NCBI RefSeq assembly: GCF_003790525.1
Contig: NZ_CP033635.1
Source of the DNA: Escherichia coli
GTDB lineage: Bacteria > Pseudomonadota > Gammaproteobacteria > Enterobacterales > Enterobacteriaceae
DNA length: 64,000 nucleotides
Strand: one strand, 5' to 3'
The position numbers were made by a program. Shown in pieces: positions 48,001-51,000 of the stretch (within the stretch, counting starts at the first letter, position 1; each line of letters opens with the position of its first letter).

Positions 48001-51000
48001 CAGCCGCTCGGCCCAAGCAGGGTCACGAACTCCCCCTCTTCGGCGCAGAACGAGATTTCTCTGGCGGCATAGAATTCGCCGAAGGTTTTGGTCACCTGTT
48101 CCAGAACCAGTTTTGACATGAGTCTCTCTTCTATCGGTTAAAAAGATGATTATTAAATTTACATACTAAACATTAAATTTATGTGACACAGATCCTTAAA
48201 GCTAAAAAATGATCTAAATATCAAATTAAAATCATATAAAACAATGGATTAACCATAAAATAACAAAAACATCTTTCACATTTAAATTTAAGTAGTAAAG
48301 TTAATTACCATCTTACATTCGAGAGGAAAAGAAGATGGCGTTTAACTTTCACCGGGCGGCAGAGGGGATCGTGCTGGCCAACAGCCACCGAGGTTATTCC
48401 AGCTGCGCGCCGGAGAACACATTCCCGGCCTTTGAAGCCGCCCGCCTGGCGGGAACCCACTGTATTGAAATCGATATCCACCTGACGGCGGATAACCAAC
48501 TGGTGGTCACGCACGATCACCGTATCGACCGGGTATCCACCGGACACGGATTTGTGGAGCAGATGACGTACCCGCAGCTGCTGGCGTGCGACTTTGGCGT
48601 GAAATACCATCCGTCGTTTGCCGGAACGCGCATCCCCTTGCTGGCGGACGTGCTGCGCTGGGCGGTGGAAAACAGCATGGGGCTGATTGTTGAGGTCAAA
48701 CAGCGCAACCGCCATGACGAGTTTGTGGCGGCGCTGGTCGCACTGCTGCATGAGCATCTGGATGCCCTCGGCCATATCCAGTTGCTGGGCTTCAACCATG
48801 TGCTGATCAACCGGGTGAAGGCGCAAATCCCGCAACTGGCGTTACAGGTGGTGACGCTGGAGCGCTACAATAACCAGCTTGCGGCGGTACAGCAGTCCAA
48901 TGCCGGATGCGTCTGCTTTGAGTTCGAGTTCGCCCATATCGACGACCTGCGGGCCTACAAAAATGCCGGACTGGGCGTGCGGATGTATCTGCATGAAATG
49001 AAAAACGGCATGACGCCGCTGGAGCAGTACGACTATAAATTCGGCTGTGACAGTCGTCCGGTGATTATCGGCTGGATGCAGGCGGGGCTGATTGATATGC
49101 TCAGCCACGATGATATTCCGTATTTGCAGGGACTGATTGAAGAAGCAGGCCTGCGCTGGAACTAGAAAAATAAGGACACCATGAACGCCCACTCTGAACG
49201 CCTTGAACTACGTGGTTCGCAGCGCCTGCTGCTGGAACTGATCCGTCTCCACGCCCCGGTGACGCGGGCTGAACTGGCACGGCTGTCGGGACTGACGGCG
49301 GGGGCGATCACCCAACAGTGCCGAGAGCTGATGTTCTCCGGCCTGGTGGTGGAAGGGGAGCGCAATACCGGGCAGCGCGGCCAGCCGTCGCTGCCGTTGC
49401 GCCTTAACCCCGGCGGCGGTTGTGCTATCGGGTTGTCGTTCAGTCCCGGTTTTATCGATATGACGGTGGTCGATCTCAGTGGTCGCCAGCTGCTGTCGCT
49501 TTGCGAAGCACATCAGGAGAATCAGCCACTGGAGGCCTCTCTCGCGCAGATCAAAACCTTGGTGGAGAAAATGCTGAAAAAGCGCCAGCTCCAGCACGCA
49601 CGTATTCTCGGCATTGGCTATGCAGTGCCCGGATTTCTGAAAGCGGATGGTCGCAAGCGCCACAGCGTACCGTGGCTGGAGAGCTGGCGTGAGGTAGATC
49701 TCCAGCAGGCGTTTGCCGACAACCTGCCGTGGCCGACGTGGGTGGAAAATAATGCCAACGCCTCGGCGGTAGGTGAACTGTACAGCGGCAAATGGAATGC
49801 GTACAGCGATCTAACCTTTATCGACCTTGGCTACGGTATCGGCGCGGGTATTATCTCCGGGAATAAAATGCTACGCGGCGGGTTCTGCAATGCCGGTGAA
49901 GTCGGGATGGCGTTTCCATCCGGTACACCGCGCCCGTCGTATAAGGATTTGCTTGCCACACTGGAGCGTGAAGGATTCAGTGAAACTAAGCTACCGGAGC
50001 TGATAGCCGGGCAGCACCCACTGCTGGAAAGCTGGTTTGAACGCTGTCGTGGCCAGGTGGAGCAGACGCTCTTCAGCTGTGTGCAGTGGGTAGACCCGCA
50101 AATCATCGTACTCGGTGGCGCGATGCCGAAACCAATTATCAGTCGTCTGGTGCAGGAACTGAATCAACTGATGGAAGCCTGCCTCGATCCCAACCGCCCC
50201 AGAGTGAAGTTAGCTGCCTCTTCGATGGGAGCACAGAGTGCGTCATGCGGCGCGGCGATGCTCCCGTTGTATAAGGTGATTAATAATGGATAAGAAGTTA
50301 TGTGATTGTTGCTTCTGAAAGTGATATTTTATGTTGTTAAAATGTAAAGTAATAATACAATGAGCTATCCATGATGGGGTTCTGTAAATAAACAAAACAC
50401 TCTCTTCAATTCTGCTCACCTTCGGTATTTGTGTATCATCACTGGCTACTGATAAAAACAGAACCGTCAGTTTTCCACGATGTGAAGGGCAGGAATCATC
50501 GGCTGTTGCAGCCAGCGTCAAACGGGACTATCTCCAGAAACAGGTGCTTCACTGGAAAGATGACTAGGTGATCTTCAGTCAGCAGCATCCTGTTGTCTGG
50601 GTGAATCTTCGTGAGCTGGTAAGTAAAGGTGATAATTTAGTCACAGTGCATCTCACCGCCCGGGGGAAGAAAGCCGATATTCAGTATCGGGTGCGCATTG
50701 ACTGTAAGAACGAAAACGCTATCTGGCAGCGCCAGAGATGAACGTATGGAGATAATCACAGAGTATGAACAAAAGGACTCTACATGTTCATTATGACTAA
50801 AAAACGCTGTTTTATTTTACGTTGCTGTCATAACGTGTTTATCTCAATTTTCGGGAACATGTTCTTAGCGGTTAGACTGGCCCCCTGAATCTCCTGCGTT
50901 TGAAGGACAGTAACAGGTTAAGTGATAACAGATGTATGAAAATATAGAGATACATCCAAGGAAGAGCCACTTTTGCGCCGTTCGTGACAGTTTTGTCATG

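What the first reader, a model, noticed from the sequence alone, without database searches (positions are those of the whole stretch)
50873..50958. IS2-derived miniature element made of the two IS2 termini only
A perfect 22-bp IS2 left inverted repeat is followed after 22 bp by a degenerate IS2 right terminus, about 86 bp in total, with none of the IS2 coding region between them. It is either an internally deleted IS2 relic or a MITE-like derivative that IS2 transposase could mobilise in trans.
Basis: seen in the sequence. Interest (0 to 1): 0.4.

Follow-up and report, generated by a model that had tools for sequence, protein, structure and literature searches.

The report
Dead, internally deleted IS2-type relic
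The 86-bp feature is real: it is the stump of an IS2-type insertion sequence that lost its middle 1.2 kb long ago and now sits as immobile debris in an E. coli virulence island, so it is an ordinary relic, not an active miniature transposon.

Summary
Window 50873-50894 is a 22/22 match to the outer half of the IS2 left inverted repeat. Window 50910-50958 matches the last 49 bp of IS2 at 40/49 and ends exactly on the IS2 terminus, far above chance.

The stretch between the two is not foreign DNA. It aligns in register with the last orfB codons of IS2 (14/23). The unit is therefore collinear with IS2 deleted for positions 23-1267, between the short repeats GAATCTC and GAATATC.

The same junction occurs in three sequence contexts and one recombinant, in 61 of 5426 complete E. 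coli genomes. It was not found on plasmids or in 100,044 species-representative genomes. A metagenome scan found only two of these contexts. Each context shares a flank with at least one other, no copy has a 5-bp target duplication, and the A and B copies share 22 and 31 bp beyond the IS2 ends.

This points to one old deletion inherited with island DNA, not MITE-like spread. The left end lacks the inner transposase-binding part (positions 23-42). The window's right end has four changes in the 11-bp cleavage domain, so mobilisation in trans is unlikely.

The unit lies in nested IS debris: an ISL3-type tip and an IS3-family orfA remnant. The finding is ordinary and of low interest.

The parts
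50873..50894 (+). Outer 22 bp of a 42-bp IS2-type left inverted repeat (IRL positions 1-22: the 11-bp cleavage domain plus the first 11 bp of the binding domain)
   Evidence: 22/22 to the IS2 IRL in L005, L017 and L008, and 21/22 to the window's own IS2. From position 23 onward the match to IRL is 7/20, which is chance level.
50895..50917 (+). Tail of the orfB coding region of an IS2 relative, homologous to IS2 1268-1290. The deletion junction lies at 50894/50895.
   Evidence: Ungapped, in-register identity to IS2 is 14/23, p about 3e-4. The C copy keeps IS2's GGGCC here. All copies share the derived states TTGAAGG and AACAGG.
50918..50958 (+). Degenerate 41-bp IS2-type right inverted repeat (IRR), ending on the terminal CA
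   Evidence: Mismatches to IS2 IRR at outside-in positions 6, 8, 9, 11, 20 and 23. The B copy has only 8 and 11; the C copy has 3, 10, 18 and 41. The alignment ends exactly at the IS2 terminus.
50851..50872 (.). 22-bp left flank that travels with the unit in all contexts (A, B, C and the hybrid)
   Evidence: A-B homology runs from 50851 to 50989, 124/140 identical. The flank is also conserved in C.
50959..50989 (-). 31-bp right flank ('X') shared by contexts A and B. It consists of about 8-10 bp of an ISL3-type terminal repeat (GGCTCTTC, 50961-50968) followed by the diverged tail of the IS3-family orfA remnant.
   Evidence: The 14-mer AAAAGTGGCTCTTC is identical to the junction between the same IS3-family orfA and an annotated ISL3 pseudogene in CFT073 (L015). 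None of 5000 shuffles reached this score.
50990..51408 (-). IS3-family (IS150-like) left end and orfA remnant, with stops and frameshifts, truncated at its 3' side
   Evidence: 79-88% identical to IS3-family pseudogenes in L013, L014 and L015, with homology ending at 50990. The repaired translation hits Pfam HTH_28 at 5.7e-12.
41100..42430 (-). Full-length IS2 (1331 bp) in the same window. It served as the reference for the comparison and is a possible transposase source. It is not part of the relic.
   Evidence: It has no 5-bp duplication (GGGAG versus CATCG).

Best explanation
The 86 bp are the immobile stump of an IS2-group insertion sequence (IS3 family). One old internal deletion joined position 22 of the left inverted repeat to position 1268, removing about 1245 bp: the inner half of IRL, orfA and nearly all of orfB. 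The deletion probably arose by slippage or illegitimate recombination between the short imperfect direct repeats GAATCTC(C) (IRL 15-22) and GAATATC (IS2 1261-1267).

Since then the stump has been inherited passively with pathogenicity-island DNA, has decayed by point mutation, and has had its flanks changed by rearrangements of the surrounding IS debris. Its only visible present-day activity is as a short patch of homology: in strain GF43 a crossover inside the left repeat fuses the window-type left flank to the sitABCD-type right flank.

Shown: the collinearity with IS2, the shared junction, the distribution, the shared flanks and the lack of duplications. Inferred: the deletion mechanism, the order of events and the loss of mobility.
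For: 1. The unit is collinear with IS2 1-22 plus 1268-1331 without gaps. Composite identity is 80-83% for all three variants. The right end is significant against shuffles and so is the spacer.

2. The same IRL22/spacer junction is present in variants A (window), B (SMS-3-5, L003 4001-4087) and C (SCU-115, L019 5527-5610). These differ from each other by 9-20%. This implies one deletion event that predates their divergence.

3. The short repeats GAATCTCC and GAATATC lie at the two deletion end points in IS2.

4. Distribution: 61 of 5426 complete E. coli genomes, 112 places, all chromosomal. None in 72,556 plasmids. None in 100,044 species genomes with two different patterns. Five metagenome contigs, all of context A or B.

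5. Contexts share flanks:
- A and C share at least 520 bp on the left (92.8% identical).
- A and B share 22 bp on the left and 31 bp on the right.
- The 5 bp on each side are GCGGT/AGGAA (A), ACGGT/AGGAA (B) and GCGCT/CCGAT (C). None is a duplication.

6. GF43's left flank is 99.8% identical to the window, and its unit and right flank are B-type from unit position 21 onward.

7. No RNA family matches, the fold z-score is -0.9, and no promoter or terminator motif lies inside the unit. RefSeq annotates nothing there.
Against: - No full-length parent with the same orfB tail (TTGAAGG...AACAGG) was found. The parent is therefore inferred, not observed.
- The right flank of context C diverges from A and B exactly at the IS2 terminus. 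A transposase-mediated event would leave this signature, although recombination with another IS2 copy would too.
- The unit differs more between A and C (19.5%) than the adjoining 523 bp do (7.2%; Fisher p = 8e-4). Simple passive inheritance does not explain this.
- The absence of a target duplication also fits an origin from two neighbouring IS2 copies instead of one.
Confidence: 0.8

Rival explanations
1. The unit is a MITE-like non-autonomous element. It is, or recently was, moved from site to site by IS2 transposase supplied by resident IS2 copies, such as the one at 41100-42430.
For: - It has both IS2-type termini in the correct outward orientation, is small and encodes no transposase.
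- It occurs in three contexts, up to 4 places per genome.
- In context C the right flank changes exactly at the IS2 terminus.
- Live IS2 copies are present in the same genomes.
Against: - No 5-bp duplication in any context.
- Each context shares a flank with at least one other, and A and B share 22 and 31 bp outside the termini. Transposition would not carry flanking DNA.
- Multiple places per genome are explained by co-occurrence of A, B and C and by duplicated islands.
- No additional contexts in metagenomes, plasmids or other species.
- IRL retains only positions 1-22. Published mutational data place an anchoring sequence at 20-42, and single-base deletions at 26 and 29 abolish circle formation. 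Mutating the A element of the IRR cleavage domain also abolishes it, and the window copy has four changes in that 11-bp domain (PMC3299598).
Confidence: 0.06
2. The unit did not arise inside one element. Two IS2-type copies lay in direct orientation near each other, and a deletion from position 22 of the left copy to position 1268 of the right copy removed everything between them.
For: - The lack of a target duplication is expected under this model.
- Divergence is uneven. The IRL is 22/22 IS2 in the window, and the ancestral IRR was close to IS2. The 23 bp inside IRR differ at about 9/23 in all copies.
- The island is dense with IS copies and remnants.
Against: - The missing duplication is equally explained by later flank exchange, which demonstrably happened (C versus A right flank; the GF43 hybrid).
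- Inverted repeats are normally more conserved than the orfB tail among relatives, so uneven divergence is not diagnostic.
- No genome with two flanking full copies at this site was found (all 50 genomes with this left flank, bar one partial match annotated as the chromosomal yebF gene, carry it next to the short unit or the hybrid).
Confidence: 0.12
3. The resemblance to IS2 ends is a chance or low-complexity match with no IS ancestry.
For: None beyond the short length of the feature.
Against: - Chance expectation for the 22-mer is 0.00 in shuffles.
- The right-end score is 53, against a maximum of 32 in 2000 shuffles.
- Both alignments end exactly on the IS2 termini and are in the correct relative orientation and order.
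Confidence: 0.01

Closest known systems
IS2 (IS3 family, IS2 group), 1331 bp, E. coli
   Same: The outer 22 bp of IRL are identical. There is a 41-bp IRR with the terminal CA and 35/41 identity (39/41 in the B copy). The last orfB codons are present in the same register, and the ends have the same order and orientation.
   Different: - Positions 23-1267 are missing: the inner IRL, the P-IRL promoter region, orfA, the frameshift site and nearly all of orfB.
- There is no 5-bp duplication.
- The retained orfB tail differs from every IS2 variant examined (window copy, LH50-c, K. aerogenes and K. pneumoniae plasmid copies). The parent was therefore a relative, not canonical IS2.
Bacterial MITEs derived from insertion sequences by internal deletion (for example MITEAba12, title seen; paper not read)
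   Same: Small size, IS-type termini at both ends and no transposase gene.
   Different: No target duplication, and no spread to unrelated sites. The copies share flanking DNA, one terminal repeat is truncated to half its functional length, and the other is mutated in its cleavage domain.
IS remnants and nested IS debris typical of E. coli pathogenicity islands
   Same: The unit sits between a yebF-family pseudogene and an ISL3 tip plus an IS3-family orfA remnant. In the B context it lies next to IS1 and ISL3 pseudogenes beside iuc/iut and sitABCD.
   Different: Nothing essential. This particular stump is simply unannotated in RefSeq records ('none' under the match).

Membership tests
IS2 / IS3-family insertion sequence (intact, autonomous) | Complete 42-bp IRL and 41-bp IRR | tested here: not met
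   IRL is present only for positions 1-22; positions 23-42 match at 7/20, chance level. IRR is full length but carries 6 substitutions in the window copy.
IS2 / IS3-family insertion sequence (intact, autonomous) | orfA and orfB with a programmed -1 frameshift encoding a DDE transposase | tested here: not met
   Only 86 bp in total. Only the last 17 or so orfB codons are retained.
IS2 / IS3-family insertion sequence (intact, autonomous) | 5-bp direct target duplication | tested here: not met
   The flanks are GCGGT / AGGAA in the window, and none of the other contexts has a duplication either.
IS2-derived sequence (ancestry only) | Significant collinear homology to both IS2 ends, terminating at the IS2 termini | tested here: met
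   22/22 for the left end, 40/49 for the right end and 14/23 for the spacer, in register, with shuffle controls.
MITE (miniature inverted-repeat transposable element) | Small, non-coding, with terminal inverted repeats matching a parent IS | tested here: met
   86 bp with IS2-type ends facing outward. However, one repeat is only half length.
MITE (miniature inverted-repeat transposable element) | Target-site duplication of the parent's length at each copy | tested here: not met
   No duplication in contexts A, B, C or the hybrid.
MITE (miniature inverted-repeat transposable element) | Multiple copies at unrelated sites, with homology ending at the termini | tested here: not met
   Only 3 contexts and 1 recombinant. 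Each context shares a flank with at least one other, and A-B homology extends 22 and 31 bp beyond the ends. No further contexts were found in the metagenome, plasmid or species scans.
MITE (miniature inverted-repeat transposable element) | Mobilisable by the parent transposase in trans | not testable with these tools
   Literature inference only. IRL 20-42 is an anchoring sequence, and deletions at positions 26 and 29 abolish circle formation. Mutations in the A element of the IRR cleavage domain also abolish it (PMC3299598). The unit lacks IRL 23-42 and has four changes in the IRR cleavage domain.

The most novel reading that the evidence does not exclude
After the internal deletion, the stump was still used at least once as a substrate by IS2 transposase supplied in trans. 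An IRR-driven, one-ended event would have replaced its right flank. This would explain why context C diverges from A and B exactly at the IS2 terminus, and why the copies diverge faster than their flanks (through repeated interaction or gene conversion with live IS2 copies). On this reading a half-IRL mini-IS2 can still take part in transposase-mediated island rearrangement.
Probability: 0.08. Interest if true: 0.35.

Novelty: new member of a known kind. Interest (0 to 1): 0.12.

Why it matters
It matters little beyond annotation.

- It shows that an unannotated 86-bp stretch in these islands is an IS2-type deletion stump. This stump can be used as a lineage marker, because a single shared junction links the glpQ-ROK-yebF'/abgT-S6 peptidase module, the aerobactin-sit module and a yebF-cybC module in E. 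coli islands.
- It documents one case (strain GF43) where the stump is the crossover point that joins two island modules.
- It does not reveal a new mobile element or mechanism.

Tried and rejected
- **Chance match:** rejected by shuffle controls.
- **Minicircle-junction relic (IRR abutting IRL):** rejected, because the outer ends face outward, not toward each other.
- **Spacer as foreign filler DNA:** rejected, because it aligns in register with the IS2 orfB tail.
- **MITE family in other species or on plasmids:** two exact or degenerate pattern scans of 100,044 species genomes returned nothing. Nothing in PLSDB covers the unit. The metagenome scan gave only contexts A and B.
- **Search for the full-length parent:** I used the unit's orfB tail as DNA and as a peptide by tblastn on plasmids. 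Only ordinary IS2 variants turned up, best 67-78% over 18-21 aa.
- **The 31-bp right flank as plain continuation of the IS3-family orfA:** partly rejected. BLAST homology to relatives stops at 50990. The flank is a diverged orfA tail plus an ISL3-type tip.
- **The 22-bp left flank as continuation of that ISL3 element or of the IS1 remnant in context B:** no support. There is no match to the CFT073 ISL3 sequence, and MAFFT's weak extra similarity was not recovered by sensitive BLAST.
- **Co-opted function (small RNA, hairpin, promoter, terminator):** nothing found.
- **Second copy near the sit locus in SCU-115:** not within +/-20 kb. It was later found 51 kb away as context C, using a left-flank search.

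Full report
**1. The observation**

The window contains a complete IS2 at 41100-42430 on the minus strand. It is 1331 bp long, has both terminal repeats and encodes orfA and orfB. I used it as an internal reference.

- **Left end.** The 22-mer TAGACTGGCCCCCTGAATCTCC at 50873-50894 matches the IS2 left end. It is 21/22 to the window's own copy and 22/22 to IS2 copies in strain LH50-c, a Klebsiella aerogenes plasmid and a metagenome contig. Chance expectation in shuffles is 0.00.
- **Right end.** Local alignment places window 50910-50958 on IS2 1283-1331 with 40/49 identities, ending exactly on the terminal ...TCCA. The score is 53, against 18.3 +/- 2.1 (maximum 32) for 2000 shuffles.

**2. Anatomy**

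A composite of IS2 positions 1-22 joined to the last 64 bp (1268-1331) aligns to the unit end to end without a gap.

The 23 bp between the truncated IRL and the 41-bp IRR (50895-50917) are therefore not a foreign spacer. They match IS2 1268-1290 in register at 14/23 (p about 3e-4). They correspond to the last orfB codons, since orfB stops inside IRR.

In IS2 the sequence just before 1268 is GGGAATATC, and the IRL ends ...TGAATCTCC at position 22. The deletion end points thus lie in short imperfect direct repeats. This is the usual signature of slippage or illegitimate recombination. That mechanism is my inference.

**3. Relatives elsewhere**

At E <= 1e-8 the unit is present in 61 of 5426 complete E. 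coli genomes, at 112 places, all chromosomal. RefSeq annotates nothing under it.

No PLSDB plasmid carries it. Two pattern scans of one genome from each of 100,044 species found nothing. One scan used a spacer/IRR 24-mer. The other used a degenerate IRL/spacer junction that tolerates the differences among all known variants. A scan of 241 million metagenome records with a 31-mer that is invariant in variants A and B (C differs within it) found five contigs.

I found three contexts and one hybrid:

| Context | Example | Left of unit | Right of unit | Genomes |
|---|---|---|---|---|
| A | the window | glpQ-like, ROK regulator, yebF-family pseudogene | 31-bp 'X', IS3-family orfA remnant, abgT-family transporter, S6 peptidase | 28 |
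| B | SMS-3-5 (L003) | iutA, ISL3 pseudogene, IS1 pseudogene, 22 bp | X, then sitDCBA | 48 |
| C | SCU-115 (L019 5527-5610) | same yebF-family flank as A, 92.8% identical | unrelated flank leading to cybC, starting exactly after the IS2 terminus | 20 |
| Hybrid | GF43 (L004) | A-type | B-type | 1 |

Three of the five metagenome contigs are context A and two are context B.

Genomes with two to four places are accounted for by co-occurrence of A, B and C and by duplicated A modules. Examples of duplication are CM148325 and strain 135.

**4. Why this is one inherited relic and not a spreading MITE**

- All variants have the same IRL22/orfB-tail junction although they differ by 9-20% from each other. 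One deletion event therefore predates their divergence.
- Each context shares a flank with at least one other. A and C share at least 520 bp on the left. A and B share 22 bp on the left and 31 bp on the right, so the A-B repeat is window 50851-50989 (124/140 identical), larger than the IS2-bounded unit. Transposition carries only what lies between the termini.
- None of the contexts has a 5-bp duplication. The flanks are GCGGT/AGGAA, ACGGT/AGGAA and GCGCT/CCGAT.
- Published footprinting and mutational work on IS2 (PMC3299598) gives the functional layout of the ends. IRR is 41 bp and IRL is 42 bp. [quoted passage not shown] IRL residues 12-19 are important for recognition and residues 20-42 form an anchoring sequence. 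Single-base deletions at IRL positions 14, 26 and 29 abolish minicircle formation. Random mutation of the A element in the IRR cleavage domain also abolishes it.
- The unit keeps only IRL 1-22. The window copy has substitutions at IRR positions 6, 8, 9 and 11, inside the cleavage domain, and at 20 and 23. Loss of mobility is thus a literature-based inference, not a test.

**5. The surroundings**

To the right, 50990-51408 (minus strand) is the left end and orfA of an IS3-family, IS150-like element, riddled with stops. It is 79-88% identical to IS3-family pseudogenes in other strains, and its repaired translation hits Pfam HTH_28 at 5.7e-12.

The 31-bp flank X (50959-50989) is the diverged end of that orfA followed by GGCTCTTC. 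The 14-mer AAAAGTGGCTCTTC is identical to the junction between the same orfA and an annotated ISL3 pseudogene in CFT073, and none of 5000 shuffles reached this score.

The IS2-type right end therefore abuts the first 8-10 bp of an ISL3-type terminal repeat, which itself interrupts an IS3-family element. This is nested IS debris. X belongs historically with context A, and context B retains only X before the sitD-downstream DNA.

The unit shows no sign of a secondary function. There is no Rfam match, the fold z-score is -0.9, and no promoter or terminator motif lies inside it.

**6. What it does today**

In GF43 the 523 bp to the left are 99.8% identical to the window. From unit position 21 rightwards the sequence is B-type (86/87 to B) and continues into sitDCBA.

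The abrupt switch in identity argues for a recent crossover inside the left repeat between an A and a B copy. An ancestral intermediate would not show such a switch. This is an inference from the identity pattern.

**7. Loose ends**

- **The parent element.** The orfB tail retained in all copies (TTGAAGG...AACAGG) differs from every IS2 variant I examined. No full-length parent was found by DNA or peptide searches.
- **Uneven divergence.** The unit diverges more between A and C (19.5%) than the adjoining 523 bp do (7.2%; Fisher p = 8e-4). Conversion with resident IS2 copies, or locally raised mutation, could explain this. I could not test either.
- **The C right flank.** It changes exactly at the IS2 terminus. 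This fits recombination with another IS2 right end, but also an old transposase-mediated event. This is the basis of the low-probability novel reading.
- **Origin of the deletion.** An origin between two neighbouring IS2 copies, instead of within one, cannot be excluded, because flank exchange has erased any target duplication.

**8. Verdict**

The 'MITE mobilisable in trans' half is not supported.

The feature is an unannotated but ordinary IS2-group deletion stump in an E. coli pathogenicity island. It is a new member of a known kind and of low interest.

Noticed in passing
window 41100-42430 (- strand): This full-length IS2 (1331 bp) has no 5-bp target duplication (GGGAG on the IRL side, CATCG on the IRR side). 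Its IRR-side flank (TRAP transporter) is shared with strain LH50-c, but synteny breaks exactly at its IRL end. The copy therefore marks a rearrangement breakpoint. It differs from the LH50-c IS2 at 41 positions.
   Followed up: partly
L004 (E. coli GF43, NZ_CP172127.1) 4001-4086: This is a hybrid locus. The window-type left flank (glpQ-like, ROK, yebF pseudogene) is joined through the unit to sitDCBA. The switch from A-type to B-type sequence lies inside the 22-bp left repeat.
   Followed up: partly
window 50959-50989 and L015 (CFT073) 2916-2935: The IS3-family orfA remnant is interrupted at the same point (AAAAGT|GGCTCTTC) by an ISL3-type end in both the window and CFT073, although the two orfA remnants are only 79% identical. 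Either the junction is old and shared, or it is an ISL3 target hotspot.
   Followed up: partly
window 50873-50958 versus L019 5527-5610: The relic is 80.5% identical between contexts A and C, while the 523 bp to its left are 92.8% identical (Fisher p = 8e-4). This faster divergence, or patchy conversion, is unexplained.
   Followed up: partly
window 50442-50741: A yebF-family gene is annotated as a pseudogene with an internal stop in near-identical RefSeq genomes. In context C genomes a 57-aa YebF-family protein is annotated as an ordinary CDS with no pseudogene flag.
   Followed up: no
L002 and (NZ_CM148325.1; NZ_CP080260.1): Some genomes carry the whole A-type module (glpQ-like, ROK, yebF', unit, abgT, S6 peptidase) at two distant chromosomal positions. 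This suggests duplicated islands.
   Followed up: no
L008 (metagenome contig OJKL01000261.1) 7753-9082: A full IS2 is inserted about 0.5 kb from the relic, on its yebF side, in a context-A contig. This insertion is absent from the window.
   Followed up: no
window 48003-57590 versus the rest of the window: Only this 9.6-kb block (glpQ-like to S6 peptidase) is collinear and 99.8% identical with LH50-c. The rest of the window matches that stretch of LH50-c only in scattered, rearranged pieces bounded by IS elements.
   Followed up: no
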